Shown: positions 25,286-60,515 of the stretch, one piece after another
Numbering within the stretch: position 1 is the stretch's first letter
Layout of the letters: every line of letters begins with the position of its first letter
From: Terriglobia bacterium
GTDB lineage: Bacteria; Acidobacteriota; Terriglobia; Terriglobales; Acidobacteriaceae
Direction of reading: 5' to 3'
DNA: 64,000 nt
Assembly (NCBI GenBank): GCA_020073385.1
Contig: JAIQFH010000031.1
Location: 10,233-74,232 of the forward strand
Position numbers and translations under genes: made by a program
The notes under the pieces: generated by a model
The model's database searches: none
Seen by the model: only the letters and a program-made list of their open reading frames with translations
Told to the model about the DNA's origin: nothing

Positions 25286-25822
25286 ATGGGCTGGCATTGT
25301 GCCTCGTGTCATCAGCTCATCACCAGCGTTAACAAGGGTCGGGTGGAGTGGCTAGCCTCGGAGGACGACCACGGTGCGACGATTTTAAGTGGGCTACGGT
25401 TGGTTCATCGCGAGTCCTGCAGGTACGATCCACAGAGCGTGTTCCGGAGCGGTCAAAGTGTGGTGGAAGGCTTGTCTCTCGAACGCTTCGTCGGCCCCGA
25501 CGGTCTAATTCTGCTGCTGTCACTTCTAGCGGCGGGTGAGCTACCTGCAGCAGAAGTCATCGAGATGGCAAAGCGAGTGCAAATTTCCCGCTACGAACTG
25601 GCCCGCAATCTTATAGGGCAACAGAATTTCCCCCAGGTTCTCCCATCTTCGTTGGGCCACGGATGTTACCTGCAATCGGAGATAGCGGAACTGATTTCGA
25701 CGTGCAATGACGCATCCAAGTTGGCGGGGACGACGGGACTCGAACCCGCGGCCTCTGCCGTGACAGGGCAGCAACGACGTGCAACTTATTGGATTTCAAC
25801 GGTACTGACAGCCCGTTCTTGA
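25286..25822 (+). CDS. Hypothetical protein whose 3' end reads through the tRNA fragment and repeat R1 (probably chimeric C-terminus)
   Basis: ORF 25193..25822; plausible start MGWHCASCHQLITSV at 25286. The last ~35 codons ('AGTTGLEPAASAVTGQQRRATYWISTVLTARS') translate tRNA-derived and repeat sequence. Confidence 0.35.
   Translation: MGWHCASCHQLITSVNKGRVEWLASEDDHGATILSGLRLVHRESCRYDPQSVFRSGQSVVEGLSLERFVGPDGLILLLSLLAAGELPAAEVIEMAKRVQISRYELARNLIGQQNFPQVLPSSLGHGCYLQSEIAELISTCNDASKLAGTTGLEPAASAVTGQQRRATYWISTVLTARS
25722..25771 (-). other. tRNA-Asp(GTC) 3' portion (anticodon arm to CCA) lacking acceptor-5' and D arm; att-like island junction
   Basis: Reverse complement: CTGCC-CTGTCAC-GGCAG AGGCC GCGGG-TTCGAGT-CCCGT CGTCCCC G CCA. 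The T arm is identical to the intact tRNA-Asp at 44156-44232. No matching 5' acceptor (GGGGACG) or D arm lies upstream. Confidence 0.75.
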
Positions 25823-25874
25823 TCCCCTAAGGAACTCTTTGACCGTGCTTATCGGACCCAAATCGGACCCGAAT
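25757..25874. repeat. Direct repeat R1 (~118 bp), partner of R2 at 44295-44412
   Basis: Aligned by eye at a constant offset of 18538 bp with no indels. I counted about a dozen mismatches. Contains the hairpin GGATTTCAACGG-N10-CCGTTCTTGATCC. Confidence 0.85.
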
Positions 25875-26081
25875 CTGCGCGAACTTTGGATGCCAGGAGT
25901 GTCTTCTTTCCCCAATGCGACCTCTCAGTGCAACCTGTGTATGTTCGGTCAGGTTGCTTCCGAATTGCTGACGGATCCGGAATGTACCGGTACAACACAC
26001 GTATGCCGTATACATGCAGATCATCCGCATCAGCAAAAACGAAAGTATCTCGTTATATGTATCGCTTGGAAGCCCTGCCGA

Positions 26082-27734
26082 TCATCCTTTCATATCAACG
26101 ACATAATCGAAGTCAAGGCCCGCGCTGTGCTCCGCCGAACTAATGTCTTTGCGTCGGCCAATCCAAAAGTAATCGTTGCCGTTCCAGTCCTTCGCATATT
26201 TCCACAGCCTTTGAACACGCAGGCCGGTGCGCGGTATCTCCTCTTCTCGGAGTTGCCAGGATTCCTCCAGAATCCGCGTACGATACTGCGGATTCTCAAT
26301 GCTTGCCGCCTCATCAGTGCGTGCGCGCCGGAGGTACATTTCCGAAACTGCAGAACCAGAAATAGATCTCTTGCGTCTGGGTACGTAAGGAATCCAATGC
26401 GAAGGTACAGGGCTCATCAACCGAAAAACCGGCATCGGGGAACCATTGGGGGGCTCTGTCGCAGATTCACGCCTGTTCTTGCCTTGAGCGGATTCAACAT
26501 CTCCGCGGTCAATCTTCTCGCCGGTTTGGTCCGTGTAGTGCTGTTCAACGGCCCAGACACTATTGGAGAGCTCATCGGGCACAAAATGGATCTCTTCCAC
26601 ACTATCCGTTTGAGCAAGAGTTGGAACAATGTTCGGCAAATACAGATAGCTGCCATCGACCTTGCTACTGCTCCCGTCTTGGCTGGACAGCGTAAAAACG
26701 GACCAAGCTTCCCCGCCCCATTCTTTGAGCGTGGGCTCCAAATCGGTTGCAATCCCGAACGAGTCGATGACGCGCACGCGTGAAAGCCGTTGTATGTCGC
26801 CCGGCTGCATCTCCACTGGTATGCAACACCAGTTATCGCAGTCGATCATCAGAAATTCTGCAAGGAGCATCTGCAAGAAGTTCGGTTCCGCGCTCGCTAG
26901 CAAGGTCACATTGGTATCGGCATCCTCGAACTCCCAGAAGCGCGCAGAAGGCATACCCGCAACCCGCAAGCTTCGTGGTAGCAGGCGAAAAGTCCTTTCC
27001 TTTTCCACGGAGAGACCGCTGACACTATTGACGTCAAAGTTGTACCAGTCCAATTCACGGCCGTCGTATTCGGACACGTGAAGAGTCAGACCTTCTCCTC
27101 TCAAATCACACTCATATTCAAGGCGCGAGGAATTCCACCAAGGCGAATGATTTTCGGTTTCAGTTTCAATGATTGATTCGAGTGGTTCACAGCCGAGTGG
27201 ATCGGTCCTGTTCGGTATCTTATTGATGGGGATCGAGGAGGCTACAATCTCGACCTGAGCGATCCCGCCCGTGTTTTCCGCTTCAAATTCGCCTGCCTGC
27301 CAGGCCCGTGCAAGAAGGTGCAAGGGATCTTTGATCCTAGCTTCGAATCCCTCCAACAAGTTTGGCGTTGTCGTATTCGGCAAGAGTTGTTGCGGTTCCC
27401 GGCCAGCGCCAATCACGACCTCAACCTGCGGAAGTTTAGTCCACACGGGCGCTCCCCCGGACTCGGTCCTTAGAGATTCGGCTGTCGTCGGCCCGGTCCG
27501 GAGAACAGACTGAGAAGCACGGTACGAAGCTGCTGGCTCAGTGCCTAGCTTCACATCGAAGGCGTACCTGCCATCGCGATCACTGGTCTCCAATGCAGGC
27601 GTTCTACGAGAATTATTTCTTACCCCACCTCTTCTGACGTGGATGGTGCCCCTCTCGTCCGCAACCGTACGGGATACCGCTACTCTAGGTGGTTCTGACG
27701 CTTTGTCATTTGCCTGTACCCTTCTGCTTGTCAT
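26082..27734 (-). CDS. Giant-operon protein E (550 aa), no recognised domain
   Basis: ATG overlaps the stop of D (ATGA). Motifs 'LLARAWQAGEFEAE' and 'ARFWEFEDADTNVTLLASAEPNFLQMLLAEFLMIDCDNWCCIPV'. No signal peptide. Confidence 0.8.
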   Translation of the reverse strand: MTSRRVQANDKASEPPRVAVSRTVADERGTIHVRRGGVRNNSRRTPALETSDRDGRYAFDVKLGTEPAASYRASQSVLRTGPTTAESLRTESGGAPVWTKLPQVEVVIGAGREPQQLLPNTTTPNLLEGFEARIKDPLHLLARAWQAGEFEAENTGGIAQVEIVASSIPINKIPNRTDPLGCEPLESIIETETENHSPWWNSSRLEYECDLRGEGLTLHVSEYDGRELDWYNFDVNSVSGLSVEKERTFRLLPRSLRVAGMPSARFWEFEDADTNVTLLASAEPNFLQMLLAEFLMIDCDNWCCIPVEMQPGDIQRLSRVRVIDSFGIATDLEPTLKEWGGEAWSVFTLSSQDGSSSKVDGSYLYLPNIVPTLAQTDSVEEIHFVPDELSNSVWAVEQHYTDQTGEKIDRGDVESAQGKNRRESATEPPNGSPMPVFRLMSPVPSHWIPYVPRRKRSISGSAVSEMYLRRARTDEAASIENPQYRTRILEESWQLREEEIPRTGLRVQRLWKYAKDWNGNDYFWIGRRKDISSAEHSAGLDFDYVVDMKG

Positions 27735-30700
27735 GGCGCCACGCGTTTCTGGTTCCGTTCAATAATTGAACGGGCATTTTCATTTTCCTTTGGAATACTG
27801 GACTTCCGTTGCCAGCCGAATGATTCCTTGGCCCAAGGTATGTAATCAGTCTTTGGTGCCAAAGGGATCCGGGCACTCTTCCCCTTTGCAGGCACCAAAC
27901 TGAACGCCCGCAAACCGAAACGGGTAATGCTCCCTTCCATGGAAGAGAGCGAACGAATACGCAAGAGCCGGATTGTTTCTTTCACAAGTAAAGCCAACTG
28001 CTCTTCGCTCCACGCGGTCTGCCTGTCATTCGCTGCGACACCTAAAAGGAAAGCATTGGGGGCTTGGCACTGCGGTGCGTCACGGTTGATGGCAATGGCC
28101 CCGGTGTGACTGGAACTGGGTTTGAAGACCGCCCACTCGGCCGCCACAAATCCTGCAAGAGGCGGCTGAGGGTTCGCACCATGAAGAAGCAGGTGACTGC
28201 CTACATACAGAGTCTCAGGATGCTTTGCATTGTCCCGTCTAGCATCATCAGGATTGGTGCTTTTGATGATCTTTGACACTCTGGCTTCAAGCGGGAGACA
28301 GTCAGCCATTTTGTACAACGAGACCAGCGGCTTCTGGATGTGCTGCCAGCGCTCCAGGATATCGGCAACCGGTGCCGGCGTTCCGAAATCGGAAATTGGA
28401 ATACTGTACGGCGGCCAGATTGGAAGTGCCTCCCCGTCGCAAGCTGTCTGCAATGCCCTAGCAACCGCCTGTAGTCCTTCGGCGGAACCAAGCTGGCTTC
28501 GTTTCACCTCTATGGACGCAAGCACCTCCTGAACATACCTGGCATAGGCATCCGGATTCGCAATAATCTCTTGAATGGCGTGCAGACGCAACGCTTCGGG
28601 AAGGCCGAACTTTGCCAAGGATCTCAGGTCGGTCTCCAATGCTGCTTTCTTTTTTCGAAGATCCTCGATCTCCTTATCACGGTCTCGCAGGGCGGACTGA
28701 TCACCGCTATCTTCTTGGCCAATGGTTCTCGCCGACCCAAGCAACGAGATCAACTCGCCACTGATCCTGGCCACGACACTCTTAAGGGTATTCCCTGCCG
28801 GATCCATCATAGGGAGGAGGCTCTCGACTCTTGTCAGAAGGCCATCCACCGCCGCCCGCTTAACGTCGAACAGGTCCACCTGCTTGGAAGGATCACTTAA
28901 AGGCTGCAAGTCCGTTGGGGTGATCGCCCTTGATTGCGAGATAACTTGTCGTAGGATCATTGCGCGATCCAGCAGTTCCGCTACACTCGGAACGTTCCCC
29001 GACTTGAACGCAAGATTGAAACTCAGCGGACACTCCTGATTCAAGAAGGCGTCGAGACTGCGGTCTGGCAACGGCCCGAACTTCCGACTCAACTCGCTGT
29101 TCTGCTGCTCCCAAAGACCGACAATGTGCGCCCGGCTGAGGAGTTTGACTAGCGCCTGCCCTCCCAACAAAATGTCTACCGGATCCAGGCCAAGATCCGA
29201 CTTCAGGGAAATGCTTCGGACGTCAATCTGTTCAGGCGATTTCGAGTTAGATACCGTCACCTGCACGACGCTTTGATCGAATCCTGAAAAGGCAGTTGCG
29301 CTAATTTTCGCCAACAACGGCTCGGCGATGATGCGGGGATTGGTCGTTGTCGCATCCACTATCGGAGAGGAGTCTATAAACAAGACACGATGCGGTGAAC
29401 TTTGGCCGTTCCTCCGAATCCTGACAAACTCTACTTCTCCGGGAGGCATTCCTCCACTCAGACATTGCATCCATGCGCTCACTCCAGCCGTATTACCGAG
29501 CGCCAGTTGATGCACGCTCTCCGCAACCACGAGGTCGCAGAACGCATCTTTCTCCTCCTGTAACTCATCCAGTAGCTTGATCACTTCTTCGCGTCTGGTT
29601 CCGTCGCCCTGGTTCCTCAATTGTGTGGCATTAGCCAAGAGCTTCTCGCCGTCTAGCAATGGCGAGAGAGCTGCCGCATTGTCCAGACCACGGGCGACTG
29701 AATAGTCGGTCCTGTATTCGTAAATCAAAGCATCCTGGCCCCGGTCGTGCAGCCAGCGCTCCGCGTGATATCCCAATATTTCATTCAGCCGAATGCCTTT
29801 CCGAAGTGCATTTAAGGTCCTTAACGCTTTTCGTACTCGGCGCGAGCACAGATTGAGCTGAAAAGGCCTCTTGTCACCGCCGAAACGGATTGCGGCAGAG
29901 CGAAGAATTCCAGCAGTCGTAGCCTGGGCGATGCTCGGAGCTATGACGTATCCGTCACTGTCCCCAGTCGCCGACTCGGTTCGCAGTTTTCCTATCATCC
30001 CGTAGTAGCCAATCAACAATTGCTTGTTGCCAGCTCTACGCTGAGCAGATAAGCGAAATGCCGCAAGGGAGGTCTGCCACGCGTCCGTGCGATGGTCGAC
30101 CAGGTCCAGCATCTCAAGTAGAAGAACTTCCAACTGGGTATCCGGAGTAGATGCAAGGAGACTGAGTGCATCGCTGAAATTACTGACTCGTTCGCGCAAG
30201 CCCTTCAGATTCGGATCTTGCGAGTTTGCCATTACAGCTATGGCATCTGGGAGGCCGCCTACGTCCTTTCCAGATTTCACAATTACTTCGGAAAGAAGCG
30301 AACTGAGGGCCAGAAGTACCAACCGGTACAACAGCGGAGTGTCGCGGTCTTCGGCCTCGGGATCCCCGAGCTCAAGTTCAGAGACGCGCTTGCGCAGTAG
30401 GTCTTTCAGATATTGGGCAGGCTGCCGATTCTCAGTTATGCCGCCCACTAAGGGGCAAACCACCGGGCGAGCACTACTACCTTTTGGTTTATCGGTGCCG
30501 TCTATACGGGGAGATACAGGGAGAACCTGGAGGATGCGACGGAGCACCTCGCCCTGATTCGGCGAACCTGGATGCATGACCGGAAGCCTAACTGCTGACT
30601 TGTCGAGGCTTTTGAGGGTTAGATCGCAGAATCGTCTTACAAAATTGAAACTTTTCTGTTCCTGAACCGGCGCGCTTCCGGGAGCTTCCACATCACTTGG

Positions 30701-32080
30701 AATCAGGATAGGCAGAATGCCGTACGGATTTCGATCGACGCGCATCGCAGGTAAGGGACCGCGGGCAAAAGCGTTGTTTGCCAAGTAATCCGCCAATGCT
30801 CGTGGGTCCATCAGTGATGGTGCCAGCCAATCAAAACCAGCTGTTAGGAATGGCAGCAACACCCTAGCCATCGCCTTGGCTTTACTTTCATCCTGCTGCT
30901 CCGCATTCCGCACTTTGTATAGGAGCGGGGAATCCACGGCCAAAGCATTTGCAAGGACGTCCGCATCAGTGGCGTCATTGACAGTCTGGCAAGCGTCCTT
31001 GTCATCCGTGGCAGCCGCCTGGCATTTGCGCTCGAAGTAACACGCTTCCCTCAGACCGGCAACGGGATCCGAGACCCACGGTCTGTATGCTGAACTTTGA
31101 CGTGGCGAGGTATTTGTGGGAGCATCTTGGGGAATAAAATCAATTTCCCCAGCAGCAATCTTGTCTTCAATAAATTCCTTTAGTTGCTCGGCCGCATCTA
31201 TCCGCCCCAGCCCTACCGCGATAATCCACTCTGAGGTAAGGGCCATATCCACATAGCTACCGGTTAGGCGGAGGCCCATGCCTAGCTTTACCGCTGCGTC
31301 GAAGTCAGAAAGCCAGCCGCCGAGGTTCAGACATGCTGGGCTATACGCCACGTCTTGTGCAATATCCGAGCTCTGTCCAATCAATGCAAGCTCACCGTTC
31401 TTCATCAAACCATACAGACCGATGCGCCGGGGCAATCCAAGAATTCCACACTTCGGTTGCGTGTCCCTCGGAGCGGTGTGGCCGGATCGCTGAAGGTGAA
31501 GCGCCCTATGGAAGCCAACCTGTGCGACGAGTGTTTGCCACGCCTCGTTGGCACTGGGATTGTCCCACCAATGAGCTCCTGCAACCTTACGATATGCATC
31601 TATCGCTGCGACCTCCTCGTCGGTTTCCGATTCAGGCTCTGTCCAATGCAAACTATCGTCGAAATACCAACGTACCCATAATTCCCTTTGCTGAATCTGG
31701 ACATCTTTAAATGCAAGGGCTTTCACACCATCTTGCTGCGGATTCTTGCTCGATGCCCAGGTAGGATTCGTGAGAGCGATTTTCAAACGCGCCCCCGGCG
31801 GGATGACCCGGTACTCCATCCTGAGAGGCAACAGAAGAATAGGTGCCGCAGGGAGCAGTTCCTGGGATTGGGGCGGACCACTAAACGGCGGCGCTGCTAG
31901 CCCCGCAACCATGGCGGATGATCCCTTGAAGAAATCGCGACGTGTGATCTGGAAACCGCTCTCTTTAGGCTTTATGAGCAGGTGCTGAGACTGCCCAATC
32001 ACGCTATTTCGCGCTACGACAGGGAACGTCTTTGATCGACGCCTACTTGAAGGAGATAGAGACTTAGTCGCTTTTAGCAT
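27731..32080 (-). CDS. Giant-operon protein D (~1449 aa) with twin-arginine (Tat) signal motif
   Basis: ORF 27731..32173. I prefer the ATG at 32080, which shares one nucleotide with the stop of C (TAATG). 'ITRRDFFKGSSAMVAGLAAPPF' is encoded at 31883-31945. The rest is orphan sequence with a coiled-coil-like stretch 'DKEIEDLRKKKAALETDLRSL'. Confidence 0.8.
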   Translation of the reverse strand: MLKATKSLSPSSRRRSKTFPVVARNSVIGQSQHLLIKPKESGFQITRRDFFKGSSAMVAGLAAPPFSGPPQSQELLPAAPILLLPLRMEYRVIPPGARLKIALTNPTWASSKNPQQDGVKALAFKDVQIQQRELWVRWYFDDSLHWTEPESETDEEVAAIDAYRKVAGAHWWDNPSANEAWQTLVAQVGFHRALHLQRSGHTAPRDTQPKCGILGLPRRIGLYGLMKNGELALIGQSSDIAQDVAYSPACLNLGGWLSDFDAAVKLGMGLRLTGSYVDMALTSEWIIAVGLGRIDAAEQLKEFIEDKIAAGEIDFIPQDAPTNTSPRQSSAYRPWVSDPVAGLREACYFERKCQAAATDDKDACQTVNDATDADVLANALAVDSPLLYKVRNAEQQDESKAKAMARVLLPFLTAGFDWLAPSLMDPRALADYLANNAFARGPLPAMRVDRNPYGILPILIPSDVEAPGSAPVQEQKSFNFVRRFCDLTLKSLDKSAVRLPVMHPGSPNQGEVLRRILQVLPVSPRIDGTDKPKGSSARPVVCPLVGGITENRQPAQYLKDLLRKRVSELELGDPEAEDRDTPLLYRLVLLALSSLLSEVIVKSGKDVGGLPDAIAVMANSQDPNLKGLRERVSNFSDALSLLASTPDTQLEVLLLEMLDLVDHRTDAWQTSLAAFRLSAQRRAGNKQLLIGYYGMIGKLRTESATGDSDGYVIAPSIAQATTAGILRSAAIRFGGDKRPFQLNLCSRRVRKALRTLNALRKGIRLNEILGYHAERWLHDRGQDALIYEYRTDYSVARGLDNAAALSPLLDGEKLLANATQLRNQGDGTRREEVIKLLDELQEEKDAFCDLVVAESVHQLALGNTAGVSAWMQCLSGGMPPGEVEFVRIRRNGQSSPHRVLFIDSSPIVDATTTNPRIIAEPLLAKISATAFSGFDQSVVQVTVSNSKSPEQIDVRSISLKSDLGLDPVDILLGGQALVKLLSRAHIVGLWEQQNSELSRKFGPLPDRSLDAFLNQECPLSFNLAFKSGNVPSVAELLDRAMILRQVISQSRAITPTDLQPLSDPSKQVDLFDVKRAAVDGLLTRVESLLPMMDPAGNTLKSVVARISGELISLLGSARTIGQEDSGDQSALRDRDKEIEDLRKKKAALETDLRSLAKFGLPEALRLHAIQEIIANPDAYARYVQEVLASIEVKRSQLGSAEGLQAVARALQTACDGEALPIWPPYSIPISDFGTPAPVADILERWQHIQKPLVSLYKMADCLPLEARVSKIIKSTNPDDARRDNAKHPETLYVGSHLLLHGANPQPPLAGFVAAEWAVFKPSSSHTGAIAINRDAPQCQAPNAFLLGVAANDRQTAWSEEQLALLVKETIRLLRIRSLSSMEGSITRFGLRAFSLVPAKGKSARIPLAPKTDYIPWAKESFGWQRKSSIPKENENARSIIERNQKRVAP

Positions 32081-34794
32081 TAAGGCAGCAACCTCCCGGC
32101 TGGAATTACCACTCGCACTGGCCTCTGAAACATCACCGAGGCAAGACTTGCTGCATGGCGATTTGCGCCCCATTTGCCCTGATCATTGGGGTTCTCTCTA
32201 CCATCCAACTTTGCGAGGTGAATTTCGCTACTGAAGTCTACGTAGCCTGATTTGCTCACGGTGACATAAGGCCAGGAGAGAGCGTCCCAAGTGGTAGGCG
32301 GATTGCCTGACTTCTTTTTTGGGTCGCGAGTTCCGACGTCAACCCCAAAACGGTAACGGCCGGGTGGCTGATACAGCACAAAGAATGACCGTTCATCTAG
32401 GTCGTTCACCGTCACTGGAAACCCGCAGTAGTAGATATCAGGTCGCAACTCACCCGAAAAAATCGGCTCAATATCTGTGCCAGCTCCGACCTTCCATTCC
32501 TTCGTTGATTGCTGGTTGAGGAGCACGTGAAATCCCGGATAACGATTTACGATCTCACCGCGAATGATAAAAACGATCTGGCCTTTTGGGCCCCCTCTTA
32601 AGTTCGAACCGAGCTGGTTGCCCCACGTGTTGATTGCCTCTATATCGTCTGTCATGTCGTCCGACGCTGGGGCGCCGCGGTCCCAGAAGCGTGCGAACAC
32701 TGTCGTTCGCAAATCGCTGGGGAATTCGCGCCACAGCAGCTCTTGATTCATTTCGTGGTTGCAGCCGACAAGAAACCCCTCGATGTATGCCGTGTCAGTA
32801 ACGAGCAGCCCGACTCTGTCCTTTGGGACCTCGTTAACACCCGGGAGGAGTTCTTCCGGACTCTCCTTGGCTAGATAGGAGGCCATTGGCGTTGGAATCC
32901 GCGGACCGCGCAGAATGAGAGTGGGATCCTCTATGCTGATGTCGCCCCCGTTCGAGATACGGCGCCTGAGTTGAAGAGCCGGCATCGCTGAAATTTGTGC
33001 AGCAATGCTGGCGCTAACACTCGCCGCATCGATATTCTTCATGTAAAAAAGCTCGTTCGTCTGCGGTCGGACACCAAAAAGCAGCTGTTCGCCCTGTTGT
33101 TGGCCGGTCTGGGGAAATAGCGCGTAGGTCCATTCTTTGTAATCATCTGCTCTCGGTTCCCAGCACCCAGCCTTTCGAACGGCGCTGCTGCCACCCTCAA
33201 GGGTCGCGGGGATCCCATAATCTGTGTCGGGAAAGCCGAGCAATGGTGGTGCACTCACCGTTTTGCGAAGCGTCCCCGCAATCTCTCGTCGGACACGTTC
33301 AGTTCGCTTCGCAAGGACCTTCCGCTCAACCAACGAGACAACACCGGATGGCACGCCGCTCTTGACAAAGGAGGCGCTCAACGTAGCGCCTGGCTCGGTG
33401 CCCCGCAGCGCAGGCAGAAAACGGTCACCGAGGATCACAAGAAGGGTCGGGTCGAGGCGTGAAAGGTGCTTTTCCTGAATTCGCTCGTTGAGCGCTTTCG
33501 CAACCTGAACCTGCATTATCAATCGGTTTGCAGCGAGAATCTCTCCGGCTTGCGACCAACACTGCGCCAAAAATTCTTCCTGATGGCGACGCACAATTCG
33601 TGCCCCTGTTCCGGCGGCAATGCGGTACCGGCGGTCAAGATTCACTTGGTTAAACCATGGGCTCTTGCCGGGCCATGGTTTGCCGTCGTCCGGAGCTTCA
33701 ACCTTTTCCTCTCGGCGGAAACGACAGCCATATGCAGGTAGCGTAAAGAGTGGGTCTTTCTCACGCGGCCCGTCCTCCGTCACATCCTCACCTGCTAAGG
33801 ACTCTTTCAATGTGGCTGTGAGACGTTTTGTCAGGCCATCTTGGGAATAGGCAACCGGTTCGGATTTGGGCGTGCGCAAAGCGCCTTGCGCTACGAACGT
33901 CAATAAAGGTTCCAAATAGTCAGGGTAGTATCCAGGATCGCCACCGAATATGGTCTCTCCGCAAAGCCCTTTCTTGCTGTCACCGACCGCAGCCAGATCG
34001 ATCGGCTTCAAATTGGTCGCCAGTGCTTCGAAGTCTTGTTGAGCCGAGACTGTGCAGCGCCATCGAGCGTAGTAGGGAAGCTTTAGGTCGGGTTGGTTCT
34101 GAGCAGCTTTCCAAGCAGGAGCGTTCCAAGGACTCGGATTTCCACTCTCGCCTAAGCCACGCAACCGCCCAGCTTCGTAAGTTGGAACGAGGAACACTGA
34201 GTACGATTTGTTTTTCTCTAATTGTCGTGGACACAACAACCGGCACAAACTAGGCGACTTAGTGACAACTCTATCGTCATCATTAGTCTTTTCAGTGCTA
34301 TCGGCCTGTACGTGGGCCCACGCCCAGGATTGCGACAGATCAGGAAGACTGTTTTCTGGAGATGTCACAGTGATGCAGGGCAGCGGTGAGGTCCCGGCTC
34401 CCCCGACTACGAACTCATCATCTTTAAGTGCCAGCAGTGCGATCCATGGTCGTAGTCGAGCGTTATTCGGGCCTTCTGCTTCGTCCAACGTGTAGCGCCA
34501 TGCGAGATCTGCTGGAACCATCTCAGCGTGAGCAAAGTAGTTGAACTCAAACCCGACGCTGCCGGGAGCGGGTTCCATGCGAGTGATAATCGCGTTGTCC
34601 GGTCTCAGAACATCGCCCGCTCCATAAAGCGCGATCTCCGTTGGTGGCTCTATGGGTGCGCCTTGCTGCACACCATCTGCAACTAGTTGAATGCTGACCG
34701 TGGCATGTCGGCGAACGCCGGCTTCCGTCGGAGCAAGCGCAATGTCCGCCAGCGGAGTTCTCGTCCAAGGAAGAAATTTGAACTGCTTGGGCAT
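32080..34794 (-). CDS. Giant-operon protein C (904 aa), no recognised domain
   Basis: Start lies 3 nt after the stop of B (TGAttcATG). N-terminus 'MPKQFKFLPWTRTPLADIAL...IALYGAGDVLRPDNAIITRMEPAPGSVGFEFNYFAHAEMVPADLAWRYT'. Confidence 0.8.
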   Translation of the reverse strand: MPKQFKFLPWTRTPLADIALAPTEAGVRRHATVSIQLVADGVQQGAPIEPPTEIALYGAGDVLRPDNAIITRMEPAPGSVGFEFNYFAHAEMVPADLAWRYTLDEAEGPNNARLRPWIALLALKDDEFVVGGAGTSPLPCITVTSPENSLPDLSQSWAWAHVQADSTEKTNDDDRVVTKSPSLCRLLCPRQLEKNKSYSVFLVPTYEAGRLRGLGESGNPSPWNAPAWKAAQNQPDLKLPYYARWRCTVSAQQDFEALATNLKPIDLAAVGDSKKGLCGETIFGGDPGYYPDYLEPLLTFVAQGALRTPKSEPVAYSQDGLTKRLTATLKESLAGEDVTEDGPREKDPLFTLPAYGCRFRREEKVEAPDDGKPWPGKSPWFNQVNLDRRYRIAAGTGARIVRRHQEEFLAQCWSQAGEILAANRLIMQVQVAKALNERIQEKHLSRLDPTLLVILGDRFLPALRGTEPGATLSASFVKSGVPSGVVSLVERKVLAKRTERVRREIAGTLRKTVSAPPLLGFPDTDYGIPATLEGGSSAVRKAGCWEPRADDYKEWTYALFPQTGQQQGEQLLFGVRPQTNELFYMKNIDAASVSASIAAQISAMPALQLRRRISNGGDISIEDPTLILRGPRIPTPMASYLAKESPEELLPGVNEVPKDRVGLLVTDTAYIEGFLVGCNHEMNQELLWREFPSDLRTTVFARFWDRGAPASDDMTDDIEAINTWGNQLGSNLRGGPKGQIVFIIRGEIVNRYPGFHVLLNQQSTKEWKVGAGTDIEPIFSGELRPDIYYCGFPVTVNDLDERSFFVLYQPPGRYRFGVDVGTRDPKKKSGNPPTTWDALSWPYVTVSKSGYVDFSSEIHLAKLDGRENPNDQGKWGANRHAASLASVMFQRPVRVVIPAGRLLP

Positions 34795-34797
34795 GAA

Positions 34798-37700
34798 TCA
34801 CACCTCGACCAGTGTTGCGGGGTCTGCAACGTGGGAGGCAAAAATCCTCCCCACTTTTCCGCGCGATTTTGCGTCGCTGCGGACCTTACTGAATGTGCCG
34901 GATACTTCCGCTTTCACTCCCGAGCTCGTTGCTTCGTCGGAAGCGACAATATAGGTAGTCGGCTGAACGTGGATTTGTTGTTTCAACAGGTCTTGATGCA
35001 CTGATCCGAACGTCTGTAGACCGGAAATGTCCGCGAAAGATCGTGCATACCAGCTTGAGGCAAACCTCTCCGGTATTATGTGCCCTCGGCCTAGATAGGT
35101 TGGCGTCTGTTCGTCATCGAGGAAGATGGTCTCATATTCGTCTGTCATCTCCACTACTGGGCTACTAGGTCCCACCAACGTGGCGGTTCCCTGGAGTTCA
35201 AATCCGCTGACATGGCTTTCACTTGCGGGAGCCTTGAGCTGCTCTTCGCCGCTGAGATCAAGGAACTGTCCTATCGCGAACCCAGCGCGGGCGTCTGTCG
35301 TTCGTGTCTCCAGCCCTTTCGCTGTCAAGTCAAACGTTCGAAACTGTCCTGCTAGGCGTGCTGTACCCAACTTCTCGATCGCCATCTTGAGCGGCAATGC
35401 GCGCTGAGAGAATCGCACGCCTGCAGCTGGATCAACAAATAGCCTCAGCGGTTTGTTGCTATCAGAAGCCTCCTCCGGGGGAGTCTCAACTCTCGCAAGG
35501 GCCACACCAGTCATCACTGTCTGCGGGACTATAGCCTCCCAGTATCTGGATTCCTTGGCAGCAGCCTTCAGGACCTCCAAAGGATCCAGTTCCGGCAGGG
35601 TCTCAGGCCTTTCCTGTCCGAATTTTGCGTTTACAGAGATCTTCACCTTATGCCCAAGAACTTCCGCCCATAGCTTTCCATTGAGGAAGTAGGGATTCGG
35701 GCCTCGCACGCGCAAGTCTCCACCAATCGCGCACATGATGTCTCCGTTGCGCAGCAGTGCGAGTGAAAGGCCTAGCGCAGCATCAAACGCAAATGGACTG
35801 AATAGCAGGATCGCATCAAAATAAGCATTCCCCTTAGCATCGAAGTCCCCAACAAGCCAAATGTGAGGCCCGTTGGCATAAATATCCAGGCAAGCGCCCA
35901 TCTGCGCACTATTGGAAGTTAAGGCAAAGTAGCCGGCCAGAGTCGCCTGAATATCCTTGTTCCCGAATCCGATGGTAAGGCGCTTCAACGCTGGGAAATT
36001 CGGGGGGGTGGGAAACTGGGGGTGAAATCCGCCAACAGAGAGAACGAAGTCCGCATTGTCGCCCCAACCAGTGCGAAGAGCCATCTCGCCGCTTAGTGGC
36101 CAGTCCAGGAGGCAGGAGTTGACAATGGCCGCATCCAGCGCAATCTGACGAGTATCAAAGTCGATCAGACCTAAGAAATCTATATTCAACTGGAGGATCG
36201 GCTCTATCTCATTCGGTAGTATTGCCGCGATCTGGCCTAGAATCAGAACCCGTGTTGCCGCACCCAACTCCAGGATGATACCTACTTTGGCCTGCACCAG
36301 GCTTGGCGTACCCCACTCAATTCGCGCACACGGTCCGAATAAGTGATGATCCTTTTGGGGGGGGAATACGGAAGCCATTGTCTCCAGAATCCGCACGGAA
36401 TCTTTAATTGGATTGTCAGGAAATAGCAGATTGTCCAAACTGCCGTCGCGAAGTGCTCCACGCAAGGTTTCGACGCTCGCGGTTCTATGCAGTCCCACAT
36501 AGCCGCCGACCCCAGTGAGTTTAAAACCAAGGCCAAGCTGAATTTCAAATTGGCCAAAGATGCTCGCGAGGAATGAGTAGCTGAGCCCTGCCGGTGGTTT
36601 AGTGTCCAGAATGGCAAAAGCCGAAAGGCTGAAATTCTCGAAGCCCAGGGCAAGTGCGCCTTTGTATCCGTTTTCGTCGATAATGAGCGTTCCGCCACCG
36701 GCAATCGGGCCGGAACTAACAGCGATGCCGATACCGTCTGGGCGCTTAAAAGTAACTTCAAGATCTGCCTTACCCAAGAGACCGGGCCTCGCAAAATCGA
36801 CAACGCCCTTGATGCCAATGTCTTGCACAATAGCAGTAGCCGGTCCGATTGAGACACCACCGGTGACAGCCGCCGCCAGGTTCAGGCTGTTCTCTTCTGC
36901 TTTGCCTGAGAAGTCGATCGTTTGGATGAAGACAGGTCCAAACTGCTTCCGGACCGGAATGGTGTAGTCGAGACCTGCCCCTCCCTGAAAGTGAAGGCCT
37001 CGTTTGTATGACAAGGTGAGAGCGAAATCGAAAGGTAGTCTCGAGGGCTGTTTGGGCATTACAGCCTGGAGAAAGGCGTCACCTTCGCTCGCCGCGAGGA
37101 CCAAGGCTCCACCCTTTAGGACGAACTCGGCACCTACATCACGTTCAGCAGTAGATGTGGTCACCAGCAAGCCAAGAGAAACGCTACTAGCCTCGAGTCG
37201 ACTTCCTGTCAGTTGCCCTATAACGATTGCGGGCGCCGAGCCCCCATTGATCACAACCCCGACGCGCAGAGTGGTGTCGAGCGCTACAGGACCGCCACTT
37301 TGATCCTTTGCCGAAATGTCCAGTCCAGCCTCCCGGATCTCAAGGAGGACATTGGCCCCAACCGAACCTTCAACAACAAGTGACGAGCCTTTACTCAGCG
37401 GAGTGGCCGCCGCTGCCGTACCCAAAAGGAACGGCTGCAACGCTACCCCTTCGAACGGTCTACCATTTGCACTCGCAACTTGTGCCAACAGAGGCATGAT
37501 CAAGAGACCGATTTCTGCGAAGCCCACATCTCGGTCCAAGAGTTCGTACACAGGCAACTCAATCGCCCGCTGCACGGCGAGTTCGTCTGCAGATAGACTC
37601 GGATACAGTCGCGAAAGCAGTCGGTTTGGTGCCAGTCGTTTTCGTGCTGGGATGGCCAAGCTATGCGCGGCGACTTCGATTAGGTCGAGAAATCTCGGAG

Positions 37701-38238
37701 CATCGAATGTCGCCAACCCCCAACCGTAGGCCTCTTTGAGCAGTCTTCCCGGACTTTGCAGCAGCCATGGAATCCGATCAAAATGCAGAATCCGCTGGGG
37801 AGGATTAATGGTAAGAAGCCCGAATGCTTGGAGGGCGGCATAAAGCCCAGGCCACTCGCCCTCCATATAGGTAAGGAGAACATCGTCTAATATTTGTGCA
37901 GGTGCCTGATCAAAAAAGTCTGGTGGCACCGTGACTCCTTGAAACATGGCCCGGAGATCGCGAAGTTTCTCGAAAAACTTAGCTAGGTGCGAACTGAGTT
38001 CGACATATTGTTGCAACTGGCTTTCAGCGGGAGATGTAAGATCTATGTGGTCGAGGGCGTCCGTAAGTTCCGCGAGGGCGCCGCGAACCCCATTCAAGGA
38101 ACTCGGTGCTGGAATATCCCAACCAAGCCTCTGCAGCCACTCGCGGAACCGACTTTCAGATGTCAGCCAAGTATCGGTGAGCCTCGCAGCCAAGCTGAGG
38201 TCGCCTATGATACGTTGGAAAGTAAACTGAAATGACAT
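34798..38238 (-). CDS. Giant-operon protein B (1146 aa); central/C-terminal region resembles DUF6603 (recollection only)
   Basis: Start lies 5 nt after the stop of A. The Gly/Ala-rich, beta-strand-like region 'GYKGALALGFENFSLSAFAILDT...GFKLTGVGGYVGLHR...WGDNADFVLSVGGFHPQFPTPPNFPALKRLTIGF' reminds me of DUF6603. Confidence 0.8.
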   Translation of the reverse strand: MSFQFTFQRIIGDLSLAARLTDTWLTSESRFREWLQRLGWDIPAPSSLNGVRGALAELTDALDHIDLTSPAESQLQQYVELSSHLAKFFEKLRDLRAMFQGVTVPPDFFDQAPAQILDDVLLTYMEGEWPGLYAALQAFGLLTINPPQRILHFDRIPWLLQSPGRLLKEAYGWGLATFDAPRFLDLIEVAAHSLAIPARKRLAPNRLLSRLYPSLSADELAVQRAIELPVYELLDRDVGFAEIGLLIMPLLAQVASANGRPFEGVALQPFLLGTAAAATPLSKGSSLVVEGSVGANVLLEIREAGLDISAKDQSGGPVALDTTLRVGVVINGGSAPAIVIGQLTGSRLEASSVSLGLLVTTSTAERDVGAEFVLKGGALVLAASEGDAFLQAVMPKQPSRLPFDFALTLSYKRGLHFQGGAGLDYTIPVRKQFGPVFIQTIDFSGKAEENSLNLAAAVTGGVSIGPATAIVQDIGIKGVVDFARPGLLGKADLEVTFKRPDGIGIAVSSGPIAGGGTLIIDENGYKGALALGFENFSLSAFAILDTKPPAGLSYSFLASIFGQFEIQLGLGFKLTGVGGYVGLHRTASVETLRGALRDGSLDNLLFPDNPIKDSVRILETMASVFPPQKDHHLFGPCARIEWGTPSLVQAKVGIILELGAATRVLILGQIAAILPNEIEPILQLNIDFLGLIDFDTRQIALDAAIVNSCLLDWPLSGEMALRTGWGDNADFVLSVGGFHPQFPTPPNFPALKRLTIGFGNKDIQATLAGYFALTSNSAQMGACLDIYANGPHIWLVGDFDAKGNAYFDAILLFSPFAFDAALGLSLALLRNGDIMCAIGGDLRVRGPNPYFLNGKLWAEVLGHKVKISVNAKFGQERPETLPELDPLEVLKAAAKESRYWEAIVPQTVMTGVALARVETPPEEASDSNKPLRLFVDPAAGVRFSQRALPLKMAIEKLGTARLAGQFRTFDLTAKGLETRTTDARAGFAIGQFLDLSGEEQLKAPASESHVSGFELQGTATLVGPSSPVVEMTDEYETIFLDDEQTPTYLGRGHIIPERFASSWYARSFADISGLQTFGSVHQDLLKQQIHVQPTTYIVASDEATSSGVKAEVSGTFSKVRSDAKSRGKVGRIFASHVADPATLVEV

Positions 38239-38243
38239 CTAAC

Positions 38244-45878: not shown

Positions 45879-47939
45879 CTATATGGCTGAGGGCCGCAGC
45901 TTCAGCCCGCGAAGCAACTGAGCGTTCGCGGCGACGATGATGGTGGAGAGACTCATTGCGACGGCGCCAACGCTCATGGGAAGATCGAGCCCCCAGCGGA
46001 CGAAAAGGCCCGCTGCGACCGGGATGGCGACAAGATTATAGGCGGTGGCCCAGACCAAATTTTGGATCATCTTGCGGTAGGTAGCACGAGAGAGCTCGAT
46101 CGCGCCTACAACGTCTCGCGGATCGCTCCGCACGAGTACGATTCCGGCCGATTCGATCGCCACATCGGTTCCCGCGCCAATCGCGATTCCAATATCCGCG
46201 GTTGCCAGCGCTGGTGCGTCGTTCACGCCGTCACCAACCATTGCGACTCTCTTGCCGTCCGCCTGAAAGCGCTTGACGGCCGATGCTTTGTCAGCGGGAA
46301 GAACCTCGGCTGCGACATCGTCTATACCGATACGCTTCGCGACCGAATCGGCCACCGTCTTGGAGTCTCCAGTGATCATCGCGACCCGAATACCAAGGCG
46401 ATGAAGTTCCTTGACGGCCTCGTTGGATTCGGGCCGAATCTCATCCTCGACGGCGAACGCGCCGAGCAGTTTCCCCTCGGTGACGACATAGAGAACCGTC
46501 CTTCCTTCGGACGCCCAGGCAGTCGTCGACTTTTCAACTTCTGGTGGCACCGTCACCTTGCCCTCACTCAGCAGCCGCGGTCCCCCAATAATGACGCTCT
46601 TGCCGTTTACGTGCGCCCGTGCCCCTCGACCGGGTAGCGCTTCGAAATCGACGGCTTGCAGCGTTGGCAGATTCCGGCGCCTGGCTTCCGCCACGATTGC
46701 TTTTGCGAGAGGGTGTTCGGAGGTGGCTTCGACGGCAGCAGCATCGGCAAACAAGTCACTCTCGCTGCTGCCCGGCGCGGCCGCGACTCCCGTCAATGCG
46801 GGCGTTCCGCGCGTGAGCGTCCCGGTCTTGTCAAAAATCACCGTGTCCAAATTGCGGGCACGTTCGAGTGCGAGCCTGTCCTTCACGAGAAGACCGTTCT
46901 GGGCTCCGAGTGAAGTGGAGATTGCAATCACGAGTGGAATCGCCAGTCCCAAGGCATGCGGGCACGCGATGATGAGGACTGTTGCCGTCCTGATCAGGGC
47001 ATGTTCTTTGTCTCCGGAGAGCCACCAGTAGGCGGAAGTAATTGCGCCGGAGGCGACGGCAACGTAGAAAAGGATTGCGGCGGCACGGTCGGCGAGAGCT
47101 TGCGTGCGAGACCCAGACGCCTGTGCAGCCGCTACTAGCCGCATGATGCCGGAAAGCGCCGTCTGCTCCCCGACTGCCGTGATGCGAACTCGAAGACTCC
47201 CGCCACTGGCAACCGTCCCCGCAATGACCTTGCCACCTGCCCCTTTCGCAACTGTCCGGGACTCGCCGGTGATCATCGACTCGTCAACATCGGCAGCCCC
47301 TTCGACGACCATGCCATCCGCCGGGACGCGGGTTCCGGGCCGAACAAGGACAATGTCCCCCATTTTCAACTCAGAAATTGGAACGGTCTGAGTCTCGGTT
47401 CCGCTTAGACGCTCAGCTGTGTCGGGGAGCAGCGCGGCGAGGGCATTGAGCGCGCCACGAGCTTGGGAAATGGCCTTCATTTCCAACCAGTGGCCCAGGA
47501 CCATGATCGTGATCAGCGATGCGAGTTCCCACCAGACTTCAATCTCAAAGAGACCGAAGGTTGCAGCGAGCGATGTCCCGAAGGCGACTATGATCGCCAG
47601 GCTGATGAGGGTCATCATGCCCGGCTTGCGGTCAGCAAGTTCGCGCCACGCCCCGCGGATGAAGACTAGCCCGCCATAAACAAAGACCACCGTTCCAAGG
47701 ATTGCGGGGATAAATTTCGAACCGGGGAAAGAAGGCGCTGTGTACCGAAGCCAATGTTGGACATCCGTCGACCAGAAGATCACGGGAATCGTGAGAGCGA
47801 AGCTCAACCAGAACTTGTCCCGAAACATAGCGACGGAGTGTCCAGCGTGACGGTCGTGGGTTCCATGGGTCTTTGACATTTTGTGGCCGGCATGTGGGTC
47901 CGCCTCATGTGCGTGGGCCGCATGTGTCATTTGGTCCAT
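45879..47939 (-). CDS. Heavy-metal P-type ATPase, CopB-like (P1B-3: His-rich N-terminus, CPH motif)
   Basis: 'MDQMTHAAHAHEADPHAGHKMSKTHGTHDRHAGH', 'IIACPHALGLAIP', 'FDKTGTLT', 'TGD', 'VGDGVNDAPALA'. Confidence 0.9.
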   Translation of the reverse strand: MDQMTHAAHAHEADPHAGHKMSKTHGTHDRHAGHSVAMFRDKFWLSFALTIPVIFWSTDVQHWLRYTAPSFPGSKFIPAILGTVVFVYGGLVFIRGAWRELADRKPGMMTLISLAIIVAFGTSLAATFGLFEIEVWWELASLITIMVLGHWLEMKAISQARGALNALAALLPDTAERLSGTETQTVPISELKMGDIVLVRPGTRVPADGMVVEGAADVDESMITGESRTVAKGAGGKVIAGTVASGGSLRVRITAVGEQTALSGIMRLVAAAQASGSRTQALADRAAAILFYVAVASGAITSAYWWLSGDKEHALIRTATVLIIACPHALGLAIPLVIAISTSLGAQNGLLVKDRLALERARNLDTVIFDKTGTLTRGTPALTGVAAAPGSSESDLFADAAAVEATSEHPLAKAIVAEARRRNLPTLQAVDFEALPGRGARAHVNGKSVIIGGPRLLSEGKVTVPPEVEKSTTAWASEGRTVLYVVTEGKLLGAFAVEDEIRPESNEAVKELHRLGIRVAMITGDSKTVADSVAKRIGIDDVAAEVLPADKASAVKRFQADGKRVAMVGDGVNDAPALATADIGIAIGAGTDVAIESAGIVLVRSDPRDVVGAIELSRATYRKMIQNLVWATAYNLVAIPVAAGLFVRWGLDLPMSVGAVAMSLSTIIVAANAQLLRGLKLRPSAI

Positions 47940-48097
47940 TTGAACTCCCTAGCCGGAACGATACGCCGCCAGGTTGCGTCGCAAGTATTCGTCAAACGTT
48001 GAGGATACAACCGATTGGTCGAGCCAGAGTGAGCACTCTCGCTCAGACGATCGGCACGTCGATTGCTAGCCTCAATACGAACCTAAGGAAGGTCATA

Positions 48098-48298
48098 ATG
48101 AATAGCACAACGGTTGTGAAAGATCCTGTCTGCGGCATGGACGTAGAAGCGGCTACCGCCGCAGGGAGAACCGAGCATAAAGGTCACACTTATTACTTCT
48201 GCGGTTCGATGTGTAAAGAGAAGTTCGACCTTAGTCCGGAACAATACCTGGGCAAGTCTGTGGGGACGGCGAAGAGCGACCATGGTTGCTGCAGCTAG
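48098..48298 (+). CDS. YHS (TRASH-type) metal-binding domain protein
   Basis: ATG at 48098 preceded by AAGGAAGG. 'VKDPVCGMDVEAATAAGRTEHKGHTYYFCGSMCKEKF'. Confidence 0.8.
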   Translation: MNSTTVVKDPVCGMDVEAATAAGRTEHKGHTYYFCGSMCKEKFDLSPEQYLGKSVGTAKSDHGCCS

Positions 48299-48676
48299 GT
48301 CCTAAGATGAACTGAGGCTTTGCGCGAAGCACAGATGCGTCTGACGAAGCTGCCAAAGTATAGAACGGCTGAGCCGAATGAAAGGGTCTCTGTGATGAAC
48401 CATGCATACGGATAGATGGGCGGATGTGGATTTGGACGCTGATCGGCGCACTCGTGGTGGTTTTACTGGTCGTCGCGATCAACAAGGTGTCCGCGAAATA
48501 GAGTGCGTTAAGAACCTGTCTGTGAAGTGACCTAAACTTGCGTCGGTCACACTTTCCGCTGGCAAAACGATTGAGCCCGACAGCCACTGTCTTGCAGGTT
48601 CGTAGTCGCGATTACAAGAGCCTGTGATCTCGGTCACAGCCCACGCGGGCTCGGCCCCATAATATACTTTAAGAAC

Positions 48677-49063: not shown

Positions 49064-49155
49064 CATTGTCCCTTTTTGCTCATCCCTCTTAGGCCTAGTT
49101 GCCTAAGGTTTAAACACGCATTTTCAGCGTCGTCTGAGCAATAGAGAACACCCTT

Positions 49156-50511: not shown

Positions 50512-50514
50512 ACA

Positions 50515-51948: not shown

Positions 51949-51959
51949 GGAGACTCGTT

Positions 51960-56597: not shown

Positions 56598-56670
56598 ACT
56601 CGGGGTCTTCAGCGATGCACTGAAGTTGTGTCGTTAGCGATCGCGAACAACAGCAGAGGTGGGACAACAA

Positions 56671-60470: not shown

Positions 60471-60515
60471 CTCCGTCGCAAAAAGCAAGTCAATCGCAAC
60501 AGGGAGGAAACGATC

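What the first reader, a model, noticed from the sequence alone, without database searches (positions are those of the whole stretch)
25722..25874. Island junction: tRNA-Asp 3' half fused to a ~118-bp repeat that recurs 18.5 kb away beside the intact tRNA-Asp
At 25722-25771 (minus strand) there is a well-formed tRNA-Asp anticodon arm (GTC), variable loop, T arm and acceptor-3'/CCA, with no 5' acceptor or D arm. Its T arm is identical to that of the intact tRNA-Asp at 44156-44232, while its anticodon-stem and acceptor sequences differ, so it derives from a different allele. This is the classic signature of integration into a tRNA gene: a hybrid intact tRNA at one end and the displaced 3' portion at the other. 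Overlapping the fragment, R1 (25757-25874) matches R2 (44295-44412) at a constant 18538-bp offset, at roughly nine of ten positions by eye. R2 sits outside the island, beyond the 5' side of the intact tRNA, and ends in a remnant anticodon arm 'ttgccctgtcacggcacggcc'. R therefore looks like the arm of an attP-type site used twice, implying tandem insertions by related elements. The host ORF 25286-25822 reads through the junction, so its C-terminus is probably chimeric.
Basis: seen in the sequence. Interest (0 to 1): 0.65.

Follow-up and report, generated by a model that had tools for sequence, protein, structure and literature searches.

The report
Tandem island junctions at tRNA-Asp
The tRNA-Asp half-gene and its 118-bp repeat mark where cargo islands without an integrase are chained head to tail in a soil acidobacterium, each island starting with its own complete spare tRNA-Asp instead of repairing the host gene it splits.

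Summary
A 50-nt tRNA-Asp 3' half lies at 25722-25771 (-). It is fused to a repeat, R1, that matches R2 at 107 of 118 positions at a constant 18,538-bp offset.

The intact tRNA-Asp at 44156-44232 ("type I") is not the rebuilt target gene. The fragment belongs to a different allele ("type II"). A near-identical contig (99.6%) carries that allele whole on the same flank, with no island.

R is a conserved ~120-nt attP arm. I found 48 distinct copies in Terriglobia, always fused to the type II anticodon arm. Its GGGTCC repeats recur next to a 405-aa tyrosine integrase in relatives.

Across about 150 loci, the sequences left and right of the anticodon loop CTGTCAC combine freely. The combinations include native 5' half + loop + spacer + whole type I tRNA. 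This places the crossover in the loop.

The window therefore holds a tandem array:
- Element X: 13.0 kb, copper efflux.
- Element Y: 18.5 kb, unknown giant proteins.
- A conjugative module upstream.

Neither X nor Y encodes an integrase. Both begin with a substitute tRNA-Asp. The closest precedent is phage "tRNA-dependent lysogeny". I rate this a new variant of a known kind, of moderate interest.

The parts
25722..25771 (-). 3' part (positions 27-76) of the native-type tRNA-Asp(GTC), 'type II': anticodon arm, variable loop, T arm, acceptor 3' strand, CCA. It is the right-hand partner (C'-B' side) of the junction.
   Evidence: Sequence. Identical to the 3' part of full-length type II genes in L189, L057, L059 and L112.
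25760..25766 (-). Anticodon loop CTGTCAC, the inferred strand-exchange (overlap) region. Equivalent loops lie at 44298-44304 and 57301-57307 (TTGTCAC).
   Evidence: Left and right partners assort independently around this heptamer. Loop-to-loop distances are 18,538 and 13,003 bp.
25772..25875 (-). R1, the P arm ('R_A') at the right end of element Y, with the arm-type direct repeat GGGTCCGATTTGGGTC at 25855-25870.
   Evidence: 48 distinct R_A copies are conserved over about 120 nt up to the loop.
25876..44155 (-). Cargo of element Y: cupin, BTAD regulator, TatA, a 230-aa protein, an M64-like 675-aa protein, DUF6603 (1146 aa), and proteins of 904, 1480 and 550 aa. No integrase.
   Evidence: Pfam; NCBIfam and PADLOC; tblastn with the integrase.
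44156..44232 (-). Complete tRNA-Asp(GTC) 'type I' (GGGGGCG..CCTGC CTGTCAC GCAGG..CGCTCCC GCCA): an element-borne substitute tRNA and part of the left-end (P') module of element Y.
   Evidence: Rfam 71 bits. The same gene follows the spacer in 81 loci.
44233..44309 (-). Purine-rich spacer (44233-44288) plus a remnant of the type II anticodon arm and variable loop, TTGCC CTGTCAC GGCAC GGCC (44289-44309).
44310..44413 (-). R2, the P arm ('R_A') at the right end of element X, with the arm repeat at 44393-44408.
44414..57146 (.). Cargo of element X: SAM methyltransferase, TetR, P-type ATPase, YHS, CusC/CusB/NosL-like/CusA efflux, SLT transglycosylase. No integrase.
57147..57312 (-). Left-end module of element X: degenerate type I-like tRNA (57147-57223; anticodon loop CAGTTAC), spacer, and loop remnant TTTCC TTGTCAC GGCAC GGCC (57292-57312).
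   Evidence: (D7).
57419..64000 (+). Conjugative module upstream of the array: TrbC/VirB2, VirB3, VirB4 and the T4 coupling protein. A TrwC relaxase lies just beyond the window.
25286..25822 (+). Conserved gene of unknown function (relatives typically 159 aa). Its last ~40 codons here are the flank, the antisense tRNA half and R1.

Best explanation
The finding is the right-hand attachment junction of an 18,538-bp integrase-less island (Y). Y is the last unit seen in a head-to-tail array. All positions below are read in tRNA sense, which is the minus strand of the window.

Shown:
- Relatives carry a native tRNA-Asp of 'type II'.
- Tyrosine integrases of one large family sit beside that gene.
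- Each element ends in a conserved ~120-nt P arm. The arm is fused to the 5' strand of the type II anticodon stem. R1 and R2 are the R_A version, which carries GGGTCC arm repeats.
- Elements begin in one of two ways: (a) the rest of the type II gene, which rebuilds the target, or (b) GGCAC-GGCC, a 55-80-nt purine-rich spacer and a complete, different tRNA-Asp ('type I').

Inferred:
- Strand exchange occurs in the anticodon loop CTGTCAC.
- A type (b) element therefore splits the native gene without restoring it, and supplies its own tRNA-Asp instead.
- New elements enter at the att site of a resident one, which builds the array.

The array in the window is: conjugative module, loop, pseudo-tRNA(I), X (13.0 kb, copper efflux), R2, loop, spacer, tRNA(I), Y (18.5 kb), R1, loop, type II 3' part, flank.

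Also inferred:
- X and Y are moved in trans by an R_A-cognate integrase. Such an integrase is encoded in a co-occurring strain.
- X and Y can travel with the neighbouring conjugative element.
For: 1. Unoccupied site. L189 is 99.6% identical to window 24997-25772. It then continues with the type II 5' half, giving a whole tRNA plus 74 nt that are absent from the window.

2. Native target. Full-length type II tRNA-Asp lies next to integrases in contigs of 1.5 Mb and 866 kb (L057, L059). GGGTCC or GGGGAC arm repeats lie between the tRNA and int, and an HTH_17 gene lies beside int.

3. Free assortment around the loop. Left partners include R_A, R_B, at least four other arms, and the native 5' half. 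Right partners are either the type II 3' part or spacer + tRNA(I).
- L093/L106 and L137 read 5' half(II) - loop - GGCAC GGCC - spacer - tRNA(I).
- L137 shares the upstream flank CGTTGATTTGGCGAGT with L112. In L112 a whole type II gene is followed by P', int, a P arm, a loop, a spacer and tRNA(I).

4. No hybrids. None of 48 distinct full-length tRNA-Asp genes is a type I/type II hybrid.

5. R_A conservation. It is conserved over ~120 nt in 48 distinct copies. The R-anticodon arm junction occurs in 35 GTDB species, 33 of them Acidobacteriota.

6. Arm repeats. The R_A repeat GGGTCCGATTTGGGTC recurs as GGGTCCGTTTGGGTC beside integrase P0001 in L005, L052 and L059.

7. Cargo swapping. L010 is identical to the window from X through R2, spacer and tRNA(I). 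It then carries 3.2 kb of different cargo, a second R_A-spacer-tRNA(I) unit and an ars operon.

8. Other arrays. Contigs with two junctions include L028, L047, L076, L112, L141 and L142.

9. No integrase in X or Y.

10. Assembly breaks. Several assemblies break exactly at 25772, 25756 or inside R2, as expected at a polymorphic repeat junction.
Against: - No excised circle or Y-less junction was observed, so current mobility is unproven.
- The array's left end, and any integrase of this genome, lie beyond reach. There is no att site up to about 73.4 kb.
- The P' module of X and Y lacks GGGTCC arm repeats.
- The loop-to-CCA module also has a sharp breakpoint right after CCA (window versus L010).
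- In L195 and L190 a type I unit abuts the same flank at the same nucleotide. The loop-crossover model does not by itself explain this.
- The searches that built the partner table were seeded on fixed motifs, so its counts are not frequencies.
- Whether type II is the only other tRNA-Asp gene, and so whether type I is needed, is unknown.
Confidence: 0.72

Rival explanations
1. A single 18.5-kb island entered the tRNA-Asp gene at 44156-44232 by a crossover in the shared T arm or 3' end. That gene is a host/element hybrid, and the fragment at 25722 is its displaced 3' part.
For: The T arm and variable loop are identical in the two copies. Cargo diverges from sibling contig L010 immediately after the CCA of the intact tRNA.
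Against: A T-arm crossover predicts mixed acceptor and anticodon types. None occurs in 48 distinct genes. The fragment's full-length partner is a different gene, found whole on the same flank in L189. The intact tRNA always comes with the same spacer and loop remnant, whatever lies to its left.
Confidence: 0.04
2. The same array, but strand exchange is at the extreme 3' end of the tRNA (CCCGCCA). Units then run from CCA to CCA. R - loop remnant - spacer - whole tRNA(I) would be the right end of X, not the left end of Y.
For: There are sharp breakpoints right after CCA. They are seen in window versus L010. They are also seen in 15 pairs of >=98% identical cores with unrelated downstream DNA, and where type I units abut the same flank in L190 and L195.
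Against: This model cannot produce native 5' half - loop - spacer - tRNA(I) (L093, L137). It cannot explain the many different left partners that start exactly at the anticodon stem or loop. The fragment begins exactly at the anticodon stem, the usual mark of anticodon-loop sites (my knowledge of Williams 2002).
Confidence: 0.14
3. No site-specific recombination today. R and the tRNA pieces are fossil scars or a dispersed repeat, and the arrangement arose by homologous recombination and duplication.
For: No integrase in the window. Many type I copies are decaying, including 57147-57223 and several loci. The breakpoints at CCA would fit homologous recombination between tRNA copies.
Against: R is never found away from the type II anticodon arm and is always in the same orientation. 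Its arm repeats match those beside integrases. Near-identical strains differ by presence or absence exactly at the loop. Cores of >=98% identity sit in unrelated contexts.
Confidence: 0.1

Closest known systems
tRNA-dependent lysogeny of actinobacteriophages (Fionnbharth and others; Guerrero-Bustamante & Hatfull 2024, PMC10865867)
   Same: A tyrosine-integrase site overlaps a host tRNA gene. The common core is too short to rebuild the tRNA. [quoted passage not shown] Close relatives use the same attB in the ordinary, rebuilding way (Boilgate versus Fionnbharth; here type II 3' part versus spacer + tRNA(I)).
   Different: Here the carriers are not phages. They are integrase-less cargo islands chained to a conjugative element, in Acidobacteriota. 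The substitute tRNA lies 55-80 nt from the core, inside the attP arm. The common core is about 16-21 bp, not 10. Dependence on the substitute tRNA has not been tested.
Genomic islands in tRNA genes with an anticodon-loop crossover (Islander database, PMC4383910; Williams 2002, from my own knowledge)
   Same: A displaced tRNA fragment starts at the anticodon stem and lies in direct orientation. The integrase sits beside the tRNA in autonomous relatives. Arm-type repeats are present. Relatives have an empty site.
   Different: The island's own end does not regenerate the target. The island itself has no integrase.
Tandem accretion of ICEs with cis-mobilizable elements or IMEs (review PMC5704250), ssrA islands of Dehalococcoides (PMC3146451) and tycheposon arrays (bioRxiv 10.1101/2020.12.28.424599)
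   Same: Successive insertions at one att site. Internal hybrid att sites. Integrase-less cargo units flanked by att repeats. A conjugative module in the same array. Strain-level cargo swapping.
   Different: Each unit here brings a whole substitute tRNA gene. The arm families (R_A, R_B and others) mix at one target. Mobilisation has not been demonstrated.

Membership tests
tRNA-targeting tyrosine-integrase genomic island (classical) | Displaced 3' tRNA fragment in direct orientation at the distal end | tested here: met
   25722-25771, positions 27-76
tRNA-targeting tyrosine-integrase genomic island (classical) | Target tRNA regenerated at the proximal end from host 5' and element 3' parts | tested here: not met
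   The intact gene at 44156-44232 is a different allele. No hybrids in 48 genes. No type II 5' half in the window.
tRNA-targeting tyrosine-integrase genomic island (classical) | Integrase gene inside the island | tested here: not met
   Pfam on all sizeable ORFs of X and Y. tblastn with P0001 found nothing.
tRNA-targeting tyrosine-integrase genomic island (classical) | Unoccupied target in a close relative | tested here: met
   L189: 99.6% identity, whole type II tRNA on the same flank
tRNA-targeting tyrosine-integrase genomic island (classical) | Arm-type repeats shared with the site next to the cognate integrase | tested here: met
   GGGTCC-N5-GGGTC in R1 and R2 and between tRNA and int in L005, L052 and L059
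tRNA-dependent lysogeny-type integration | Common core too short to rebuild the tRNA at either junction | tested here: met
   L093 and L137: 5' half - loop - GGCAC GGCC - spacer. Shared core is YTGCY CTGTCAC GGCA, plus GGCC.
tRNA-dependent lysogeny-type integration | [quoted passage not shown] | tested here: met
   tRNA-Asp(GTC) type I at 44156-44232 and in 81 related loci
tRNA-dependent lysogeny-type integration | Element tRNA is required because the disrupted host gene is essential and unique | not testable with these tools
tRNA-dependent lysogeny-type integration | Carrier is a temperate phage | tested here: not met
   No phage genes in X or Y. A conjugative module is adjacent.
ICE with accreted cis-mobilizable elements | Two or more units in direct orientation separated by hybrid att sites | tested here: met
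   Loops at 57301, 44298 and 25760
ICE with accreted cis-mobilizable elements | Conjugation genes in the same array | tested here: met
   VirB2, VirB3, VirB4, T4CP and TrwC
ICE with accreted cis-mobilizable elements | ICE integrase of the same att specificity; composite excision | not tested
   The left end lies beyond the DNA I could fetch.

The most novel reading that the evidence does not exclude
Soil Acidobacteriota (Terriglobia) carry a large family of cargo cassettes that insert in the anticodon loop of the native tRNA-Asp without repairing it. Each cassette brings a complete substitute tRNA-Asp as part of its attachment arm. Arm and left-end modules are interchangeable among at least three integrase subfamilies. 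The locus thus works as an open-ended cargo array. It would be served in trans by integrases and exported by a neighbouring conjugative element. This would be 'tRNA-dependent integration' outside phages and outside Actinobacteria.
Probability: 0.5. Interest if true: 0.7.

Novelty: new variant of a known kind. Interest (0 to 1): 0.55.

Why it matters
Island-finding tools look for a rebuilt tRNA plus a displaced fragment. If the substitute tRNA is really needed, it ties the host to the element in an addiction-like way, as shown for some mycobacteriophages. That would extend the principle to non-phage islands in a dominant soil phylum. The array also shows how metal-resistance and unknown gene clusters are swapped between near-identical strains in sediments and wetlands.

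Tried and rejected
- Displaced 5' half at 57.3 kb. I considered that the 26 nt left of the loop (GGGGATG...) are the displaced native 5' half. It is only about 50% like the true 5' half and is unique to this genome. I left this open rather than claim it.
- Left end of the array. A protein search with the methylase from L007 returned only 97% relatives.
- Laying Logan contigs on the junction. This showed branching and foreign tRNA 5' halves, but it could not prove excision because only contigs are kept.
- Synteny of the 159-aa gene in more distant genomes (L191, L193). There is no tRNA beside it there, so this was uninformative.
- NCBIfam and PADLOC on Y's cargo found nothing.
- Composition. 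GC is 0.51-0.56 in Y and 0.54-0.62 in the flanks, which does not delimit the islands.
- A remnant of the R_B arm in the window: none found.

Full report
**1. Observation**

The window has three ARAGORN tRNA genes: tRNA-Leu(gag) at 1864-1947, tRNA-Asp(GTC) at 44156-44232 (-), and a 94-nt "Leu-tag" call at 57147-57240.

The minus strand of 25722-25771 reads CTGCC CTGTCAC GGCAG AGGCC GCGGG TTCGAGT CCCGT CGTCCCC G CCA. These are tRNA positions 27-76 and nothing more.

Compared with the intact gene:
- The T arm and variable loop are identical.
- The anticodon stem differs: CTGCC/GGCAG versus CCTGC/GCAGG.
- The acceptor 3' strand differs: CGTCCCC versus CGCTCCC (family D5).

R1 (25757-25874) matches R2 (44295-44412) at 107/118 positions at a constant 18,538-bp offset. 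Both ends of the match are sharp.

57147-57223 is 90% identical to the intact tRNA-Asp (D7; Rfam tRNA 45 bits). Its anticodon loop is CAGTTAC and its acceptor stem is mismatched. The same loop remnant, TTTCC TTGTCAC GGCAC GGCC, lies about 65 nt upstream of it.

**2. Surroundings**

The organism is an uncultured Terriglobia-type acidobacterium from sediment or wetland metagenomes. Evidence: and the named relatives.

| Segment | Content |
|---|---|
| Y, 25.9-44.1 kb | cupin, BTAD regulator, TatA, an M64-like protein, DUF6603, four large unknown proteins |
| X, 44.4-57.1 kb | methyltransferase, TetR, P-type ATPase, CusCBA-type efflux system, SLT |
| 57.4 kb onward | TrbC, VirB3, VirB4, coupling protein; TrwC relaxase and a restriction system just beyond the window |

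No integrase is found in X or Y.

**3. R is a widespread att arm**

An exact search for the R end plus the fragment's anticodon arm hit 35 GTDB species, 33 of them Acidobacteriota.

Two arm families precede the arm:
- R_B, which begins with GGGGACGTTAAGGGGACG.

R_A is conserved over about 120 nt in 48 distinct copies and is variable beyond that.

Two things can follow the loop:
- The full 3' part seen in the finding ("type II").
- GGCAC GGCC + a purine-rich spacer + a whole tRNA-Asp of the 44156-44232 kind ("type I").

**4. Which tRNA is the target**

A sibling-strain contig (L005) carries R_B + type II 3' half + GGGTCCGTTTGGGTCC + a 405-aa tyrosine integrase. That integrase has more than 1,400 relatives.

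In contigs of 1.5 Mb and 866 kb, such integrases sit beside a full-length type II tRNA-Asp, GGGGACGTAGTTCAGTTGGTTAGAACG CTGCC CTGTCAC GGCAG... The arm repeats lie in between and an HTH_17 gene is adjacent.

The decisive contig is L189. It is 99.6% identical to window 24997-25772. It then continues with the type II 5' half, giving a whole tRNA plus 74 nt not present in the window. So the fragment is the 3' part of a type II gene, and a near-identical strain lacks X and Y at this joint.

No type I/type II hybrid exists among 48 distinct full-length genes.

**5. Where the exchange occurs**

I scanned JGI metagenomes for the loop + GGCAS GGYC + the start of the spacer.

Around CTGTCAC the two sides assort freely:
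- Left partners: R_A, R_B, at least four other arms, unique sequences, and the native type II 5' half (L093/L106, L137).
- Right partners: the type II 3' part, or spacer + tRNA(I).

L137 and L112 share the native upstream flank CGTTGATTTGGCGAGT:
- L112 has a whole type II gene, P', an integrase (36% identical to P0001), a P arm, the loop, the spacer and tRNA(I).
- L137 has the split 5' half joined to the loop, spacer and tRNA(I).

Homology of the 57.3-kb unit to the others also starts at the stem or loop.

From this I infer exchange in the anticodon loop. The stem strands would serve as core sites, as in other anticodon-loop integrases (Williams 2002, my knowledge).

Elements with the second kind of left end therefore split the native gene without rebuilding it, and carry a same-isotype substitute.

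**6. The window as an array (tRNA sense)**

Order: conjugative module - loop (57301-57307) - pseudo-tRNA(I) - X - R2 - loop (44298-44304) - spacer - tRNA(I) - Y - R1 - loop (25760-25766) - type II 3' part - flank.

Unit lengths are 13,003 and 18,538 bp.

L010 is identical from X through R2, spacer and tRNA(I). It then carries 3.2 kb of other cargo, a second R_A-spacer-tRNA(I) unit and an ars operon.

Seven other contigs show two junctions in direct orientation.

Many assemblies end at 25772, at 25756 or within R2. Logan contigs branch there too.

**7. The ORF**

ORF 25286-25822 belongs to a conserved family of 455 homologs, typically 159 aa. Homology stops near residue 136.

The window's tail...TCNDAS KLAGTTGLEPAASAVTGQ QRRATYWISTVLTARS, is flank, then antisense tRNA half, then R1.

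P0241, the product of L189, instead continues RSNQLNYVP, which is the antisense of the type II 5' half. The chimeric-tail claim holds.

**8. What remains unexplained**

- The loop-to-CCA module also breaks sharply right after CCA (window versus L010).
- In L195 and L190 an R_B-loop-spacer-tRNA(I) unit abuts the same flank at the same nucleotide. The "type II 3' part" and "spacer + whole tRNA(I)" thus behave as interchangeable left-end modules. The cause could be homologous recombination between tRNA copies, a second recombinase, or simply the end of the conserved module. I cannot tell which.
- The flank itself may be an older module. In L005 and L052-L055 it ends in R_B + a type II half + P' + integrase. 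The window lacks that arm.
- The left end of the array and its integrase were out of reach.
- No excision product was seen.

**9. Comparison and verdict**

The mechanism most resembles tRNA-dependent lysogeny (PMC10865867). The architecture resembles tandem accretion of ICEs with cis-mobilizable elements (PMC5704250) and tycheposon arrays.

It fails two defining tests of a classical tRNA island: no regenerated target and no integrase. It is also not a phage.

I rate it a new variant of a known kind. Confidence in the array and loop-exchange reading is about 0.7. Confidence that the substitute tRNA is required is about 0.5.

Noticed in passing
window 57147-57223 (-): A type I-like tRNA-Asp pseudogene (anticodon loop CAGTTAC, acceptor mismatches) sits between the SLT gene and trbC. 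ARAGORN reports it as a 94-nt tRNA-Leu(tag); Rfam gives tRNA at 45 bits.
   Followed up: partly
window 26082-43334 (-): Cargo of Y is a co-oriented cluster: cupin, BTAD regulator, TatA, a 230-aa protein, an M64-like 675-aa protein, DUF6603 (1146 aa), and proteins of 904, 1480 and 550 aa. It has no NCBIfam or PADLOC match. Function unknown.
   Followed up: partly
window 55734-56597 and 52451-55771: The start of the SLT (VirB1-like) gene overlaps the stop of cusA. The lytic transglycosylase is therefore separated from trbC/virB3/virB4 by the pseudo-tRNA unit and fused to the copper-efflux operon.
   Followed up: no
window ~19025-19330; L002 15440-16636: The MFS transporter gene is truncated by about 1.2 kb relative to a 99.6% identical strain. 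Beyond it, three strains (window, L002, L005) carry three different sequences.
   Followed up: partly
L005 10735-12238; L052-L055: In a 98.7% sibling strain, found in the same samples, the flank of the finding ends 60 nt after the MFS gene. There it carries R_B + a second type II 3' half + GGGTCC repeats + integrase P0001 + an HTH_17 gene. The 'host flank' may itself be an older module.
   Followed up: partly
L190 1191-1266: An 89% relative has, on the same flank, a type I-like tRNA whose anticodon arm reads CTGCC GTGACGC AGCAG. This looks like an inverted loop. ARAGORN calls it Val(gac). It could be an inversion, decay or an assembly artefact.
   Followed up: no
L070 13200-13310, L112 4090-4120; L057, L059: Each integrase subfamily has its own arm repeat: GGGTCCG-N4-GGGTCC, GGGGACG-TTAA-GGGGACG, and GGCACA-AAAA-GGCACA. 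All share the same anticodon-arm core.
   Followed up: partly
L006 1-255 vs window 25501-25755: One 4.8-kb contig is identical to the window up to 25500 and then unrelated. It is either a further strain variant inside the conserved gene or a chimeric contig.
   Followed up: no
window 10219-13787: Two adjacent FG-GAP/ASPIC-type repeat proteins account for the multi-copy direct-repeat families D1-D3 and D8. They are unrelated to the finding.
   Followed up: no
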